Made by a program: the position numbers and the translations under genes
The notes under the pieces: model-generated
Told to the model about the DNA's origin: nothing
Seen by the model: only the letters and a program-made list of their open reading frames with translations
Databases searched by the model: none
Origin: the human T2T-CHM13v2.0 reference genome, Homo sapiens
Assembly: GCF_009914755.1 (NCBI RefSeq)
Contig: NC_060935.1
Reading direction: 5' to 3' (one strand)
DNA: 64,000 nucleotides
Part shown: positions 47,936 to 55,246 of the stretch, in pieces
Position numbering within the stretch: position 1 is the first letter of the stretch
Layout of the letters: each line of letters opens with the position of its first letter

Positions 47936-49649
47936 CCAATCAACTGCAGCATTCTTTCCCACTGAGCCCAGGTGCAACCTCAAAATCCTTTTCTACACAG
48001 CCTTCTTTCTAGGCAACAGCTATCAATCAATCAGGTATTGAAATCAACTTGCCACCTTTTTGAAAGAAGAAAGAACATAGGTCTAATATTAGCTGGGCAA
48101 ACACAGCCATGCAATTTGACCTCTCAAGCCTCCATTTCTTCATTTGACAACTGAAAAAATAGCATTGCCTACTCACAGAGCTAGTGTGAGCATCAAGTGA
48201 GGTAGCACATAGAAAAATGCTATACAAATGGTAGTGTTTTTAGGATTACTCAAAGGACAGAAACAGCTGGCATGTTAGCGCCTCAGGGGTCTTGGCATCA
48301 TCCTCCCCCCTACCCCAGTAGGAGACCATGAGCCTCCTTGTGAAGGAGGCTGTGGTAGCCAGCAGCTCCTTCTGAAGTTTAGGCCTCTCTTCCCCTAATC
48401 CTCTCTTCATTTGGAGACAAACAACAAACCCCTCTGGCACCCCCACCCCTCAGATCAACTCCATCAAGAAGCGAGGCTTCTCTTTGTACTACAGCAAACA
48501 CACGTCTCTTATTGACGTTCCCCTGGGACCCTCTGTGGCAACACATGCGTAGCTTTGAAGTTGCGAGTGTGTTTAATGCGCAAGGGCCCCGTCTCGGTTC
48601 AAGGACAGTATTTTAAGTCCCTGAGAAGAGAGGAACAAAGTTTTGATTGCAGAAAGAAACAGATCCTTAACAGACTTGAATGATAAAACATCACAATCTC
48701 ATCCGATTGTAGCAGCCAGCTCTGAAGAGGGAGTCACGGAAGAAACAATTGATTGGGAAGCCTGACTTTAATCTCAGCCATAAGCCTGTTCCTTGACCTA
48801 AGCTACTACCAGTTCCCTGACTTGTGACAGGCACAGAACTAAAAACGCAGGGTGCAAGCTGCTCAGGGCAGGACTGCTGGGGAAGCAAACATAACCGCGG
48901 CTTGGAAAACTTCAGGACAAAGGCATCGTGTGGGAAAATGGCCTCCTTTGAAAGATTACTGCCTGAAGGAGGTGTCACCTGATCAAATAATAAAATCCTG
49001 AAGAGGGTACAGCTCATCACTTGACCTGGATCCATCTACAGAAGAATAGCCATCATTTCACCTTTTCAAATGAGCTTAGTTGTTTCAGAAACAAACCATA
49101 AACTTCACTGCAGGTCCAGCGAGAGTCCAGGCTTCAAGAGGGAAGAAAAGAGCCACTCTTCTGGAAGCAACTAAAGGAAAGAAATATGAGGCAGATAGCT
49201 GTTGAGAATATTGTCTTCTCACGGATTCCATGAGGATCTGGCCCAGAACCTGGGTGGAAAACAGACCAATCATCACCAAACCAGCTTCACCAACAATGCT
49301 GCAGGCAGTGACCTGAGAGATGCCCGGACCAGGAGAGAGGCCACACTGGGAAGCCAAGGTGATCTTAGTGATACCTGGGACTCAGGCACTGCCTATCATT
49401 CTGAAGAGCAGGGGTCAGGCCAGCAAGCTGGGCTCATGAGTAAAGGCAGGTGGAGAAGATCATCTAGAGGGGTCATCAGAAAGTTTAGGTCTCAACTTTT
49501 CAGTTGAGAAATATTAATATAATCACCCCATGTTCCCAGGGGTGATCAGTACTAGGGGGATGGTTTGCACTGAGCTAAGAGCATCTTATTCATCTGTATA
49601 TCTTCTGGGACAAGCACAATGTATGGCATATACCAGGTCAATGATTTTA

Positions 49650-49812
49650 ACCCTGTCTACTCATTAGAACAGCCTAGGGTGCCTTACTAAAATACCAGTG
49701 GCTAGGAGCCACTCTCAGAGCCTCTGAATTAATTGGTCTGGGAATAGGCCCAGGCATGAGAGTTATAACTTCACAGGTGATCTAAAGTAAAGTCAAGGCT
49801 ATGAACAATTGT
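49650..49812. mobile_element. MER5-family
   Basis: cattagaacagcctagg..tctgaattaattggtctgggaataggcccaggcat..caggtgatcta. Confidence 0.6.
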
Positions 49813-49857
49813 ACCAGATCATCAATGAATGGCAGCTGAACAATGGAAGAACTAATG

Positions 49858-50411
49858 TGGTATGGTTTCGCTGAGTCCCCACCCAAATTTCACCTTGAAT
49901 TGTAATAGTCCCCACATGTCAAGGGCAGGGCCAGGTGGAGATAATTGAATTATGGGGCAGTTCCCCCCATACGGTTTTCATGGCAGTGAATAAGTCTCAC
50001 GAGATCTGATGGTTTTATAAATGGGAATTCCCCTGCACATGCTCTCTTGCCTGCTGCCATGTAAGACATGATTTTTCTCCTCATTTGTCTTCCACCATGA
50101 TTGTGAAGCCTCCCCCGCCATATGTAACTGTGAGTCAATTAAACCTCTTTCCTTAATAAATGACCCAGACTCAGCCAGCCTGCCGCTATACTTTATTTCT
50201 AATTCAGAGAGTTCATTCTCAGATCTATCCAGGGTGTCCTTCGAATGGCTCCCCAAATCCAACCAAAGCCTCTTCTTACGAAGTCATCAACATCTGTCTC
50301 TCAGGCCGGGCTTCTTCAAAACAAAAGGTGCTTCTCTCTCGCCGGTGCTCAGGCTCAGCAAAGGCTCAGGCAGGTAGGTCTTTACTAGCAGAGTGAAAAC
50401 AGACTAATACA
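49858..50411 (+). mobile_element. THE1 (C-like) solo LTR with internal non-LTR insertion
   Basis: tggtatggtttcgctgagtccccacccaaat..aagtctcacgagatctgatggttttata..tgagtcaattaaacctcttt..gactaataca; 5-bp TSD taatg/caatg. Confidence 0.95.
50173..50377 (+). repeat. Duplicated copy of 52198-52256 joined to 52545-52691
   Basis: Manual alignment: 55/59 and 137/147 identities, no indels. Confidence 0.97.
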
Positions 50412-52197
50412 CAATGAATGAATGGAAGCATTGGAGGTGAATGACAGCACACTCATTCACAATGGCAGCATCCCTAATAGGACCGCTGGCACTAGCCATT
50501 GGCATGGGCTGGTGAGAAAGTCTGCTTAGGAGGCCAGATTATCCATCAGAAGGCTCCCTGTTTAGCCCAACATAAGCAAAGGGACATTGGCTATTCCTGA
50601 AAGAATCTTCACAACAAACCGCTATAGTTGCTTCATATCCCCTCATTCCTGCTAAATCCTCTGTAGCATGCTATTATGTATATCTCTTCATTCAATGCTT
50701 TTAACAAAGCAGAATCATAGGAAGAATAGGTGTTTTTTAATCTATGTTTCATGAGTGACTAAAATGACAGTCCCGGCTGCCAGATTATGTAGAATGTCCC
50801 AGGTCACGCAGTTTCCTTGTGGGGAATCGAGGGCTCTCTGTTTACTGGATGGGGTTAACCTAGGAGCTGAGGGTTAACCTGGTAATCTAACCTCTTTTCT
50901 GCATCTATCCTACCCTGTGCCTCATTACATAGGCACACGCATGGGCTGGGGCAATACGATCAGGCATTTAATTAAGCAGATATCAAGCTCAAGAGGGCCC
51001 TATTTCCTCTACTGTGAACCTAGGAGCAATGATAAGGAAATGCAGGAGCCTGAGGGTTGAAGCACAAATTTAATAAACATTTCCGCCGTTGCCTGGAGCC
51101 TGATTTCTGTCAAGGCCCAATGACTTCTTGAACTAACTTGCTGAGTGATTGCAAACTTCTTTGAGAGCCTCATGAGGGATGGCACTCATTGGAGGTTGAG
51201 CATGTACACAAACACAGGCCCAATTGGATGGATACCCTAGCGCTCTCTCTCTCTCTTTCTCTCTCTCATTTGCGCACATGCACACACCCTCCTCACAATG
51301 CCATAATGTCTATGTAAATTGGATCTTTAATATCCTTCAGATAAATGGCTTCAGAAAGAACATGGATACAATACTCTGTCTCTGAGTTAACATGTTAGGC
51401 TCTGCCTCCCAAATTGGCTCAGAGAAATTAGCAGGAAGGAAGGATCAGACGAAATAATAAACCTGCTTACCTGCTCATTAATTTAATCTCCCCCCCACCA
51501 CCCTCTCTTCGTCTTGTGGTTTCACTACCCATAAAATAACTAGATAACTTCGAAGTCCTAGATGAAAGAGAAACTAGGTCTGGAAGCTCTAAGATTAAAG
51601 GAGAATTTGTAGGATTAGTCTTTGATTTTTTTCTGTTTCTCTCTCTTTCTCCCCCTGTCTTTTATTTTTTTTTTCTTTTTATCTCAAAGGTGACGGAAGA
51701 GGCTTCCCTCTTCTTTTCACCTCTCTGCTGAGCTGGTCAGCCTGAAGCCTCCCCTGGGGGACAGAGGCAGAGCTCACAAGGAACTTGGGACCTGGGACAG
51801 AAAGTGCAGAGTAGTAGGGCTCCTCTTAGTGACATTTCCCACAAGACATTCAAGGGCATCTGTTGTTTGAGTAATGTATGGGCACAGGAATCTGCTTCCT
51901 CCTTATTGTTTGAGTAGGACACCCTCTTGCAGATTCTTGGGTGCACTTCCCTATACCTCCTTTCCCAGGTAACTCTCTCCCTTAAAGAGCCTGAGATGAG
52001 TAGAAAAGACCCTGACCTACCTGGCCTGCACAATCTTGGGAGATTTCAGTGATTCCATTATGTCTTCCCAGTCCTGAGAGCCAGACTGTGAGCATCTCCA
52101 ACATTGCTCTACAAGACATGTTTCAAACAGTTGCACCTAAGTCACAACGCACCCTCCCTAGGGCCACTCCTGCCCCTGGTTATAACTAGCAAACACA

Positions 52198-52691
52198 AGC
52201 CAGCCTGCTGCTGTACTTTATTTCTAATTCAGAGAGTTCTTTCTTAGATCTATCCACTCTTCTCGGGAGCTCCTGGCATCTCAGGGTAGTGAGCACCTCC
52301 CTGAAAGCTCTGGGTGACCAGTCTTTATTCATTGCACGTGTGCCTCCTCCCCAAAGTCTAGCGTGAAGAAATCGGACAAGATACAGAGATCCTCTACTCC
52401 ACCGGGGGAAAGTGAAAACCACACAGTTTAAGAGAGATGGGAGAACAGAGAAGCAGCAGCAGGCTCTGTTCAACAGATGGGCAGCCCAGGGTGGCGAGGG
52501 GGAGAAATGTGCCCCAGAGCAGCAGCTTGTCCCGGTGCTCACATAGGGTGTCCTTCGAATGGCTCCCCAAATCCAACCAAAGCCTCTTCTTACAAAGTCA
52601 TCGACATGTCTCTCTCAGGCCGGGCTTCTTCAAAACAAAAGGCACTTCTCCCTCTCCAGTGCTCAGGTTCAGCAAAGGCTCAGGCAGGTAG
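52198..52691 (+). repeat. Donor locus of the THE1-internal duplication
   Basis: Same two segments, here separated by 288 bp (52257-52544) that is absent from the copy. Confidence 0.95.
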
Positions 52692-53023
52692 TGACAACAA
52701 AGAAGGCAAAAGGCCAGGGAGCAAGTGCAGTGCTGTAAAAATGAGATGGGAGTTGAAGCTTCTCTAGGCATCTGGATGCAAATACCTATGAATTTTCAAG
52801 CCCCATATGCAGAGGTACCCCTGTGGCTGATGTGCCGCAGCCCTGTTATCCATATTCAAGCTCACAGGCCTCACTTTTGGAAGGAAAGTTACTCTAGTCC
52901 AGAACAGCAGCACCCAGGAGTCTTAGTCTCATAACTTCTTCATATTGAGGCCCCAAGAGCTCATGCTTGTGTAGGTTTTGTCTGTTGATATTTACTGTAC
53001 TAGATATTAAAACTGAGAAAAGT

Positions 53024-53294
<271 letters not shown>

Positions 53295-53869
53295 TTACAA
53301 AATATTTGTTAATTCATTTAAAAATAACATCTATCATACGTGAATATATACAATAGTTTTTTAATTTTCCAAAACAAAATTAGTGAGAACAGTGGCTTTG
53401 TTTTATATTCACAAATCTCTTTAATGGCAGCCTTAATAGAAACCAGCTAGATTCACGTATCTGCTTCTGGACGCACCCTGTTGTGATAGGCTGTTTTGTT
53501 GAAGTTCATAAAAAAAAAATACAGCCTCACACAGATATGTATTTGGAAAGGGGAGGAATAGCTTAATAATCTTTTCTGATAATTGTGGGTATTTATGGAA
53601 ATTACATTAAAACTCAAAAAATGGTGCTTTCTTAAAGGTTACAGCTTGGAATGAGAAACCTTTTCATATAATGTTACATTAAAATCCATTGATCTATCTT
53701 ACACTTGAAATGGAATTTTTGCATCATGGATTGATCATCTGGAAATATTGGTTCACTGAGTTATACAGATCTTGCAAATGTTGATACATTTCATGATGCA
53801 ATATTGGAAATCCACATTTGTCCATATCGCCTCAGATTGCGTCAGAAAAGTCTTTTAACTATTTGGAAG

Positions 53870-54255
53870 TTCCCAGTGCAAGGGCCACTAGGATTCAGCC
53901 CTTGTTGGAGAAGGTGCAATTACAGCCTGCTGGAAGGCAGAGAAGTTCTCTGGGTTGCCTGGACCCAAGCTGGACCATAGTCAATGAGCTGAGGCTGGGA
54001 AACAGGAACTGGAAAACAGGAAACCCCTGCCGAGGCACCTAATGAAACATACAGGGAAGCCTTCTTCAGGAATGTCGTTGAGCTAACTGGTAAGCCAGCT
54101 AGGGAACCTATGGAACTCCCCAGGAAGGTGCCTCCTGTAAGGCTGCCCACAGGGAAATGCTACACCATGCAGGAGAGCTCCCTGGGAAGCCTTCCTCTGG
54201 GATACCAAGGGAAACCACCTAGGAAGAGGTGCCAGGCTGCTGAGGATGAGCCCTC
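53870..54255 (-). mobile_element. ERVL LTR fragment related to the LTR at 54525-55246
   Basis: Patchy reverse-complement similarity to ~54760-55090, e.g. taccaagggaa vs ttcccttggca and ggctgcccacaggga vs tccctgggggcagcc. Confidence 0.55.
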
Positions 54256-54259
54256 ATCA

Positions 54260-55246
54260 TCATTTTACATAGCAATTGTTGGAGATTAACTTTATAATGT
54301 TCTGTTTAGGTGTTATTTAGTAGTACCATGGCTAAATTTAAGGAGATGTTAATATACCCAGCAACAGATACAATAACTCTTGAGACTATACATCTGTTTA
54401 GGAAAAGGATGAGAATTTCACTAGTTCAAAGGATAGCTATAACTCATTACGCAGAAAGACAGTTGTTTCAGTGTCAAACAGAAGTTCAAGTGTGTGCAGA
54501 GGTTGTGTAAATAAAAGGGTGGACTATGCCAGTCATCAAATTATTGCTGCTCAGCTCCAAGGCTACCTTCATTCCTGCTTGTGATACTGGAATGTGTCTT
54601 ACTGGTCAATTGGAACTTTTTGTCAGTAGACAGCACTGGAAGAACACTGGAGGAGGAAAGGGCTTTTCTTCCTGGTTCCAGTGATCTTCTCAGCTTTCTC
54701 CTTGGTGCATGGTAGCCAGCAGTGCATGGGATACTAAGTGATGTCATGTTTATTGGAGCTGGCATCTCCCCCATTACCAGCTTCCCTTGGCACCATGGAG
54801 AGTGGCTTTATGGAAAGTTCACCCATCAGTGCAGCTCCTCCCTGGGGGCAGCCTCTTAGGACCACAGAGAGGGGCTTCTTGGTGAACCCTGTGTGTGCCA
54901 CAGCTGGGCTTCCCAGCGTGTTCACCAGCCTCCATGACAGCTTCCAGCAAATTCCATTGACCATCACAAGCAGTTTCCTGTCTGCCAGGCCTGGCCTAGT
55001 GACTGTGGATGGGCTGTGGCCCAGAGTAGCTTCCTGTCATGCAGGGGGCTACCATGATACCAACTCCAGTGAATTCTGACTCCCAGCCCCCACTCAAGTT
55101 TCTTCCTTTATTGGAACTCTCCCTTAGTCTTACGGTGTTCTTTAGAATTCTCTTTTATTCTTGCAAATAGTTCATTCTTTATGTTAAACCTTCCCTATTT
55201 ATATGCGAGGTGGTTTTTCTCTCCTGACTAGATCGTGACTGATACA
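54260..55246 (+). mobile_element. ERVL internal 3' end + PPT + MER73/MER74-like LTR (54525-55246)
   Basis: PPT aaaagggtggac, then tatgccagtcatcaaattattgctgctcagctccaa; ends ..gtgactgataca. Confidence 0.7.

What the first reader, a model, noticed from the sequence alone, without database searches (positions are those of the whole stretch)
49858..52691. Downstream sequence copied back into a THE1 LTR exactly at its splice donor, with splice-like junctions
Seen: the THE1 end normally reads cccagtctcag|gtatgtcttta. Here ~205 bp of non-LTR DNA (50173-50377) sits at that bar. It is a same-orientation copy of two unique segments 2 kb downstream (52198-52256 and 52545-52691), 14 mismatches in 205 bp, and it skips 288 bp. 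All three junctions fall on AG. Junction 1: LTR ctcAG joins donor aAG|ccagcc (52199/52200). Junction 2: tatccAG|ggtgtcc matches donor cacatAG|ggtgtcc (52546/52547). Junction 3: the copy ends ggcAG|GTAG, where the donor also has CAG|GT (52687/52688). Donor 52547-52687 is therefore a 141-nt AG..GT-bounded exon-like unit. Known: MaLR LTRs often act as promoters and splice from this donor. Inference: an LTR-initiated spliced RNA or its cDNA may have templated an edit of its own LTR, leaving a longer first exon with a rebuilt CAG|GTAGGT donor. Caveats: the first segment is not followed by GT in the present donor (tatccac|tct), and acceptor 1 lacks a good pyrimidine tract. DNA template switching with 2-, 1- and ~6-nt microhomologies (MMBIR/FoSTeS/Pol theta) fits equally well. 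There is no poly(A) or TSD, so this is not ordinary retrotransposition.
Basis: partly seen in the sequence, partly recalled or inferred. Interest (0 to 1): 0.8.

Follow-up and report, generated by a model that had tools for sequence, protein, structure and literature searches.

The report
Nearby DNA copied into an old LTR
About 200 bases copied from two nearby downstream stretches were pasted into an ancient retrotransposon LTR, most likely by error-prone DNA repair or replication that hopped between templates, which is a known kind of mutation and not clear evidence of RNA splicing.

Summary
A solo THE1-like LTR (49858-50411) is interrupted at its CAG|GTATGT-type site by 205 nt. These match two same-strand segments 2.0 and 2.3 kb downstream (52198-52256 and 52545-52691). 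There are 14 mismatches and a 288-nt skip. Both sequences occur nowhere else in the T2T genome. None of 29 other LTR copies carries an insertion at this site.

The junctions have 2-, 1- and 3-6-nt microhomologies, with no poly(A) and no real target-site duplication.

The splice-like reading does not hold up:
- The 288-nt skip is not GT-AG or AT-AC on either strand, and no single base change rescues it.
- The first "acceptor" is no better than a random AG.
- The AGs at junctions 1 and 3 are the same LTR AG, counted twice through microhomology.

A partial genome scan found no second LTR with unique local sequence inserted at this site.

Best reading (about 0.65): an ancient germline multi-template templated insertion of the MMBIR/FoSTeS or synthesis-dependent end-joining type. 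The event is roughly 20-35 Myr old (rates recalled).

An RNA template acting in cis stays possible (about 0.1), because the insertion sits exactly at the LTR's donor-like site. I class this as a new member of a known kind, of modest interest.

The parts
49853..49857 (.). Left target-site duplication of the LTR (TAATG)
   Evidence: the other copies start at TGATATGG and this one starts at TGGTATGG (49858). The five bases before it match 4 of 5 with the five bases after the LTR end.
49858..50172 (+). THE1-like MaLR LTR, 5' part, up to ...CCCAGACTC
Evidence: 86-90% identity over about 315 nt to 39 other scored loci (6456 first-look candidates); alignment of the ends.
50173..50231 (+). Inserted copy, segment 1 (59 nt). 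Its first two bases, AG, are shared with the LTR.
   Evidence: 55 of 59 identical to 52198-52256.
50231..50377 (+). Inserted copy, segment 2 (147 nt). It ends CAGGTAG, and CAGGTA is shared with the LTR site.
   Evidence: 137 of 147 identical to 52545-52691.
50378..50411 (+). LTR tail (GTCTTTACTAGCAG...CTAATACA), resuming where the empty site would continue
   Evidence: matches the tails of the other copies.
50412..50416 (.). Right target-site duplication (CAATG)
   Evidence: The flanks on both sides have no similarity to the flanks of 29 other LTR loci, whereas 8 (upstream) and 9 (downstream) of those loci share flank similarity of 300 nt or more with each other. This is therefore a solo LTR.
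52198..52256 (+). Donor segment 1
   Evidence: Unique in the genome apart from the copy.
52257..52544 (+). 288 nt of the donor region skipped in the copy
   Evidence: no other match in the genome; ends are CT..AT (+) and AT..AG (-), not splice-like; the DNA fold is weaker than 98 of 100 shuffles (z +1.8).
52545..52691 (+). Donor segment 2, ending CAGGTAG
   Evidence: 52688 is the first GTA in this segment, and CAGGTA occurs only twice in the 3 kb after the LTR.

Best explanation
This is a germline templated insertion made in one event. A 3' DNA end was created within the AGGTA of a solo THE1-like LTR, either by a break or by a stalled replication fork.

The inferred order of steps:
1. The end paired through 2 nt (AG) with DNA 2,025 nt downstream and copied 59 nt.
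2. It slipped 288 nt further on through 1 nt (A) and copied 147 nt.
3. It returned to the LTR through the shared (C)AGGTA.

The result is +199 nt, with no loss of LTR sequence and with the donor left intact. This is the pattern of microhomology-mediated template switching (FoSTeS/MMBIR), or of synthesis-dependent, polymerase-theta-type end joining with long synthesis.

Shown here: the copy, its direction, its uniqueness, the junction sequences and the microhomologies. Inferred: the polymerase, DNA rather than RNA as template, a single step, and the date. The date is roughly 20-35 Myr, from 6.8% divergence using substitution rates I recall.

One consequence is that the LTR's donor-like site was rebuilt as CAG|GTAGGT, 199 nt further from the LTR promoter.
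For: - Two collinear, same-strand copies, 93% identical, with the donor retained. They are unique genome-wide, so the source is local and this is not a repeat family.
- The insert is derived: 0 of 29 other LTR copies have an insertion at the site.
- Microhomology is present at all three junctions (2, 1 and 3-6 nt). There is no poly(A), no TSD of 5 nt or more, and no untemplated filler.
- The LTR resumes at the exact base, as expected when the return is guided by the 6-nt match. Copying stopped at the first GTA of segment 2, and CAGGTA occurs only twice in the 3 kb downstream.
- Junction 2 is non-canonical for splicing on both strands, and the junction-1 AG is of random quality.
- Segments 1 and 2 are equally diverged (4 of 59 and 10 of 147, both 6.8%), which fits one event.
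- The mismatches look like slow decay, not polymerase error: 10 transitions to 4 transversions, with 5 at present CpGs plus a TG/CA pair that suggests an ancestral CG.
- Germline templated insertions copied from several templates (up to five) are documented in normal human genomes (PMC8421209, passages seen).
Against: - The insertion sits exactly at the LTR's 5' splice-site-like motif. Taking about 3 of about 355 LTR positions, I estimate that as roughly a 1-in-100 coincidence for a random break.
- The donor is downstream and in the sense orientation, which a DNA mechanism does not require.
- 200 nt copied from 2 kb away is long and distant for classical polymerase-theta inserts (my recollection). 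It is also further than the 100-bp template distance reported in yeast and quoted in PMC8421209.
- A 1-nt microhomology at junction 2 is minimal.
- No outgroup sequence was available here. So the single-step claim, the ancestral bases and the date are untested.
Confidence: 0.65

Rival explanations
1. An RNA template acting in cis. The LTR was an active germline or early-embryo promoter. Its transcript, spliced from the LTR's CAG|GT site to the AG at 52198-52199, was used directly (RNA-templated break repair) or as cDNA to patch a break at the LTR donor site. The 288-nt skip would then be a reverse-transcriptase template jump or an aberrant splice.
For: - The insertion is exactly at the LTR's 5' splice-site-like motif.
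- The donor is downstream and in the sense orientation.
- Both donor segments begin just after an AG, and segment 2 ends at CAG|GT.
- THE1 LTRs act as promoters: a THE1B LTR contains a splice donor (PMC5134097, passages), and THE1D supplies start sites in human embryos (PMC10616205, passages).
- RNA-derived patches at breaks, some carrying several spliced exons, are described as class 2 templated sequence insertions (PMC5110952, abstract, passages and section 5).
- RNA-templated break repair works in human cells (PMC12065846, abstract and section 15; PMC8195485, abstract in the search listing only).
Against: - Junction 2 is not GT-AG, GC-AG or AT-AC on either strand. Three adjacent substitutions would be needed to make it so.
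- Over 99% of embryo isoforms, including intergenic LTR-driven ones, use only canonical junctions (PMC10616205, passage).
- The junction-1 acceptor has A at -3 and a median pyrimidine tract.
- The copy keeps the donor's +4 base, G at 50377.
- No transcript is annotated here in the hub's gene table.
- The printed signature of spliced-RNA repair is whole-intron deletion, whereas here the 2-kb 'intron' is retained.
- No second LTR with such an insert turned up in the scans.
Confidence: 0.12
2. Two steps. A contiguous 494-nt copy of 52198-52691 was first inserted into the LTR, and the copy later lost the middle 288 nt by an ordinary deletion. Alternatively the donor later gained 288 nt.
For: - A 1-nt microhomology at junction 2 is typical of plain end-joining deletions.
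- Nothing in a single genome dates junction 2 relative to junctions 1 and 3.
Against: - It needs a second rare event inside a specific 494-nt target. Multi-template events are common among germline templated insertions: 33 complex events among 103, and 26 among 99 (PMC8421209, passages).
- The 288 nt has no other copy in the genome and no flanking duplication, so a later gain by the donor is unlikely.
Confidence: 0.1
3. The resemblance reflects a repeat family or LTR-LTR recombination, that is, independent copies of an old element or exchange with a second LTR at the donor. On this view there was no local copying.
For: None found beyond the general abundance of repeats in the region.
Against: - The 205-nt and 601-nt queries each match only these two places in 3.1 Gb.
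- The stretches 50412-52197 and 52198-52900 have 0 hits against 29 LTR loci with 1.5-kb flanks.
Confidence: 0.02

Closest known systems
[quoted passage not shown]
   Same: - The copy comes from nearby sequence and the donor is kept.
- Microhomology is present at each switch.
- Several templates are used in one event.
- No larger rearrangement results.
- Such insertions are present as inherited variants.
   Different: - At 205 nt copied from 2.0-2.3 kb away, this case looks long and far compared with the events of 25 bp or more, and the 100-bp template distance in yeast, quoted in the passages I read. I did not see that paper's own length or distance distributions.
- This case is an old event seen in one human assembly, not a polymorphism.
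- All pieces are in direct orientation.
Class 2 templated sequence insertions / TSIPs (Onozawa and colleagues; review PMC5110952)
   Same: - An insertion of about the same size at a presumed double-strand break.
- No TSD and no poly(A).
- Microhomology at the junctions, with the donor intact.
   Different: - Those patches come from distant, often unlinked, transcribed regions and are thought to be reverse-transcribed RNA.
- Here the donor is 2 kb away on the same strand, and the internal junction is not a canonical exon-exon join.
[quoted passage not shown]
   Same: A local transcript could template repair of a break in its own gene, and the break site here is at an exon-intron-like boundary.
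   Different: - The printed scar is precise loss of GT-AG introns.
- Here nothing is lost: downstream sequence is duplicated into the LTR, and the skipped 288 nt is not an intron by its ends.
L1-mediated retrocopies / class 1 TSIPs
   Same: Insertion of a copy of non-repeat genomic sequence.
   Different: - No poly(A) and no TSD of 5 nt or more.
- The insertion is not at a TTTT/A-type site.
- By contrast, most of the 22 other interrupted LTRs do carry Alu insertions at this end.

Membership tests
Microhomology-mediated templated insertion (MMBIR/FoSTeS type) | The inserted sequence is a copy of another genomic sequence that is still in place | tested here: met
   191 of 205 identical, with the donor intact at 52198-52691.
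Microhomology-mediated templated insertion (MMBIR/FoSTeS type) | Microhomology at every junction, with no long homology | tested here: met
   AG (2 nt), A (1 nt) and (C)AGGTA (3-6 nt). The flanks are otherwise unrelated.
Microhomology-mediated templated insertion (MMBIR/FoSTeS type) | The template is nearby, with more than one template possible | tested here: met
   Two templates at +2,025 and +2,314 nt on the same strand.
Microhomology-mediated templated insertion (MMBIR/FoSTeS type) | Made by a DNA polymerase copying DNA during replication or repair | not testable with these tools
   The sequence alone cannot tell a DNA template from an unspliced RNA template.
Spliced-RNA-derived insertion (class 2 TSI with exon-exon joins / RT-DSBR) | Internal joins coincide with canonical intron ends in the donor (GT-AG, GC-AG or AT-AC) | tested here: not met
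   the skipped 288 nt is CT..AT or AC..CA on the + strand and AT..AG or TG..GT on the - strand. There is no GT in 52250-52262.
Spliced-RNA-derived insertion (class 2 TSI with exon-exon joins / RT-DSBR) | The donor region is transcribed, with reads across the joins | not testable with these tools
   No RNA data are available here. The hub's gene table lists no transcript over 30202-64000.
Spliced-RNA-derived insertion (class 2 TSI with exon-exon joins / RT-DSBR) | The acceptor used from the LTR donor looks like a real 3' splice site | tested here: not met
   pyrimidine fraction 0.44 (38th-51st percentile of all 4987 AGs in the window) and A at -3. This is a crude measure, not MaxEnt or SpliceAI.
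L1-mediated retrocopy (class 1 TSIP, processed pseudogene) | Poly(A) tail, TSD of 5 nt or more, and a TTTT/A-like target | tested here: not met
   none of the three is present.
THE1-like MaLR solo LTR | Full-length similarity to many other LTR copies, a 5-bp TSD, and no internal sequence on either side | tested here: met
   39 other scored loci at 86-90% identity. TSD TAATG/CAATG, 4 of 5. with the control. Subfamily not determined.

The most novel reading that the evidence does not exclude
The LTR's own transcript was spliced from the LTR's donor-like site into a cryptic AG 2 kb downstream. It then served in cis as the template for repair of a break at that donor site. In effect it wrote its downstream 'exons' back into the LTR and rebuilt a strong donor behind them. 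If so, this would be a natural, fixed germline scar of RNA-templated break repair that adds sequence instead of deleting an intron.
Probability: 0.1. Interest if true: 0.75.

Novelty: new member of a known kind. Interest (0 to 1): 0.3.

Why it matters
As a DNA template-switch event, this is one more clean, datable example of how complex templated insertions become fixed in primate genomes. Here the event also remodelled the 3' end of a potential LTR promoter/first-exon unit. That is useful as a worked case but not surprising.

It would matter much more if the RNA reading were true. Natural germline evidence for RNA-templated repair in humans is very scarce, and the signature in print is intron loss. 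An insertion of spliced downstream sequence at a promoter's own splice donor would be a new signature that could be searched for.

The single coincidence that keeps this open, the exact position at the donor-like site, can be settled cheaply with primate alignments and existing long-read RNA data.

Tried and rejected
1. A hairpin across the skipped 288 nt as the cause of the jump. The DNA fold of 52237-52564 gives -38 kcal/mol against a shuffle mean of -46.3 (z +1.83; 98 of 100 shuffles fold at least as well). The only long-range stem is 9 bp and is not at the junctions. Rejected.

2. A repeat family or a second LTR at the donor. There were no other genomic matches and 0 hits to 29 LTR loci. 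Rejected.

3. A recurrent process at this LTR site.
- With exact anchors, 2044 LTRs have normal spacing and 22 have 30-400 nt between the anchors.
- By my script and by eye, the 22 are Alu or partial-Alu insertions in most cases.
- The exceptions are one that runs into a second LTR start (L045), one 388-nt insert with no local match that I did not characterise (L049), and one short tandem duplication (L056).
- None is a copy of unique flanking DNA within the 1.5 kb of flank held on each side.
- With degenerate anchors and a gap of 30-290 nt there were 7 hits: the window itself, 4 Alu-related, the same tandem duplication, and one that spans an LTR end and a further fragment.
- The scans see only LTRs that keep these anchors, and they could not have detected donors more than 1.5 kb away. 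This is weak negative evidence.

4. Coding or RNA-gene content of the 'exon-like' unit. Two + frames are open over 147 nt in both copies, but the differences are mostly replacements. Rfam gives only sub-threshold Alu-type hits at 53025-53296. Nothing was found.

5. Printed precedent for LTR 'self-editing'. The search (templated insertion, LTR, splice donor, downstream sequence; at least 3 of 4 terms) listed 12 of 54 papers, and none of the 12 contained 'templated insertion'. One search found general template-switch papers only. I make no claim beyond these two searches.

7. Outgroup genomes, RNA-seq, MaxEntScan, SpliceAI and RepeatMasker are not available here.
Full report
**What is there**

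The window is human chr11 (T2T-CHM13), in a stretch with no annotated gene between 30202 and 64000 according to the hub's table.

At 49858-50411 lies a THE1-like MaLR LTR.
- Its first 315 nt match 39 other scored loci in the same genome at 86-90% identity, out of 6456 first-look candidates.
- It starts TGGTATGG and ends CTAATACA, like the other copies.
- It is flanked by TAATG and CAATG, a 5-bp target-site duplication with one mismatch.
- Neither flank (48300-49856, 50412-52197) resembles the flanks of 29 other LTR loci. By contrast, 8 of those loci share upstream flank similarity of 300 nt or more with each other, and 9 share downstream flank similarity.
- It is therefore a solo LTR.

The repeat finder and a base-by-base comparison give the following:
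- 50173-50231 matches 52198-52256 (59 nt, 4 mismatches).
- 50231-50377 matches 52545-52691 (147 nt, 10 mismatches).
- Both matches are on the same strand and share base 50231.
- 288 nt of the donor (52257-52544) are skipped.

Searched against all 3.1 Gb, the 205-nt insert finds only itself and the two donor pieces (E 1.9e-55 and 6.4e-16). A 601-nt donor query finds only itself and the two copy pieces. This is therefore a local copy of unique DNA and not a repeat family.

Of 29 other LTR copies, 27 read straight across the site as CTC[A/G/T]GGTATGTCTTTA with a few substitutions. Two have small deletions and none has an insertion. The insert is therefore the derived state and the downstream DNA is the source. 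The net gain is 199 nt, because the 205 donor-matching bases replace AGGTAT of the LTR.

**The junctions**

- Junction 1: the LTR ...GACTC-AG and the donor ...ACACA-AG share AG.
- Junction 2: the donor's left side continues CTCTTC, its right side is preceded by CACAT, and only the A is shared.
- Junction 3: the donor reads GGCAGGTAG|TGAC and the LTR site reads CTCAGGTAT|GTC, so CAGGTA is shared. Base 50377 is G as in the donor, where 22 of the 29 other LTR copies have T and none has G. This is either a base copied past the microhomology and extended from a mismatch, or a later T>G change.

The AG of the empty site can be credited only once if the break was blunt. With an intact template, as in replication-fork template switching, the whole 6-nt match could guide the return. 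That would also explain why CAG now flanks the insert on both sides.

There is no poly(A), no filler and no TSD.

**Testing the splice reading**

I treated it as a hypothesis with predictions.

1. The 288-nt skip should have intron ends.
- It reads CT...AT on the + strand and AT...AG on the - strand. Shifted by the one ambiguous base it reads AC...CA and TG...GT.
- There is no GT anywhere in 52250-52262.

2. The acceptors should look like acceptors.
- The AG at 52198-52199 has a pyrimidine fraction of 0.44 over -20..-3. That is the 38th-51st percentile of all 4987 AGs in the window. It also has A at -3.
- The AG at 52545-52546 is better: 0.67, the 84th-92nd percentile, with T at -3.

3. The GT at 52688 matches 6 of 9 consensus positions, as do 17% of the 3128 GTs in the window.

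4. 'All junctions on AG' reduces to one independent observation. Junctions 1 and 3 reuse the LTR's own AG through microhomology, and AG makes up 7.8% of dinucleotides in the window.

In human embryos, over 99% of isoforms in every class but one use only canonical junctions. This includes the intergenic class, over a quarter of whose isoforms are LTR-promoted (PMC10616205, passages seen). So junction 2 counts heavily against a fully spliced template.

**What still favours RNA**

- The insertion is exactly at the LTR's 5' splice-site-like motif. I put this at roughly a 1-in-100 coincidence for a random position in a 355-nt LTR.
- The donor is downstream and in the sense orientation.
- THE1 LTRs do act as promoters. 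[quoted passage not shown] THE1D copies provide start sites in embryos (PMC10616205).
- RNA-derived patches at breaks are described as class 2 templated sequence insertions, some carrying several spliced exons (PMC5110952, abstract, passages and section 5).
- RNA-templated break repair works in human cells, but its printed scar is whole-intron deletion (PMC12065846, abstract and section 15). That is not what is seen here: the 2-kb 'intron' is retained.

I weighed the position coincidence and the orientation against the non-canonical junction 2, the random-quality acceptor and a low prior. This leaves the RNA-in-cis reading at about 0.1. These weights are my judgement, not a computation.

**Is it recurrent?**

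- With exact anchors on either side of the site, 2044 LTRs have normal spacing and 22 have 30-400 nt between the anchors.
- By script and by eye, most of the 22 are Alu or partial-Alu insertions. One runs into a second LTR start (L045), one is an uncharacterised 388-nt insert with no local match (L049), and one is a short tandem duplication (L056).
- None is a copy of unique DNA from its own 1.5-kb flanks.
- With degenerate anchors that admit the window's LTR and a gap of 30-290 nt, there are 7 hits. Only the window's own is a unique-sequence insert.
- The scans are partial, because they need exact anchors and hold only 1.5-kb flanks. This is weak evidence against a general 'LTR self-editing' process.

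**Best explanation**

A single germline event of microhomology-primed copying with template switches, of the FoSTeS/MMBIR type or synthesis-dependent end joining.

In its favour:
- Local donor, direct orientation, microhomology at every join, and clean return to the departure point.
- Copying ended at the first GTA of segment 2, and CAGGTA occurs only twice in the 3 kb after the LTR.
- Both segments are equally diverged, each at 6.8%.
- Germline templated insertions using up to five templates are known in normal human genomes, with complex events making up 33 of 103 and 26 of 99 (PMC8421209, passages).

Against it:
- The position coincidence at the donor-like site.
- The length and distance of the copying, which look large beside the events of 25 bp or more and the 100-bp yeast distance in the passages I read. 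I did not see that paper's own distributions.
- The lack of any outgroup.

The alternatives are a two-step history (a 494-nt copy followed by a 288-nt deletion, about 0.1) and an unspliced-RNA template. Neither can be excluded from one genome.

**Age**

- There are 14 differences in 205 nt, 10 of them transitions and 5 at present CpGs. An adjacent TG/CA pair at 50329-50330 and 52643-52644 suggests an ancestral CG.
- This looks like slow neutral decay, not polymerase error.
- With primate substitution rates that I recall, about 1e-9 per site per year, 3.4-3.6% per lineage gives roughly 20-35 Myr.
- That is younger than the LTR, which is 10-14% diverged from its closest relatives.
- This predicts the insert in apes, perhaps in Old World monkeys, and an empty site in New World monkeys.

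**Other checks that found nothing**

- The DNA fold of the skipped stretch is weaker than its shuffles.
- Rfam gives only sub-threshold Alu-type hits at 53025-53296.
- The open frames in segment 2 show mostly replacement differences between the copies.
- Two literature searches found no paper describing an LTR carrying a templated insertion at its splice donor. In one search, 12 of 54 papers were listed and none contained 'templated insertion'. One search returned general template-switch papers.

**Verdict**

The splice-based interpretation is not supported at two of three junctions, but it is not excluded. The event is a new member of a known kind and of modest interest.

Noticed in passing
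L037-L058 (other chromosomes of the same genome); the equivalent of window 50160-50395: The 3' end of THE1-like LTRs seems to be a recurrent Alu target. Most of the 22 LTRs with 30-400 nt between the anchors carry an Alu. Several have a poly-T run starting right after GTATGTCTTT, and several have a sense-oriented Alu starting right after CCCAGTCT[T/C][G/A]G. This is presumably because the T-rich TCTTTATT stretch suits L1 endonuclease, which is my inference.
   Followed up: partly
window 50170-50174 and the LTR copies: The base before GGTATGT varies among copies as CTCAGG, CTCGGG, CTTGGG and CTCTGG. That looks like decay of a CpG, so the 'CAG|GT' form of the donor-like site is only one of several states (13 of 29 copies). 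It may not have been this LTR's state at integration.
   Followed up: partly
L056 / L065 (G000:C23:15463430-15463507): Another THE1-like LTR carries a short tandem duplication (about 40 nt) of the same end region (CCCAG...GTCTTTATTAGCAG repeated). This is a different small rearrangement at the same site.
   Followed up: no
window 53003-53334: An Alu element, with SRP-like and mir-1268/mir-3135-like Rfam hits below gathering score. It overlaps the start of the RefSeq 'enhancer' feature 53095-54295 in the hub's table.
   Followed up: no
window 51234-51271 and 51626-51690: CT-rich low-complexity runs lie between the LTR and the donor (family D2). They were not examined as possible fork-stalling sequences.
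   Followed up: no
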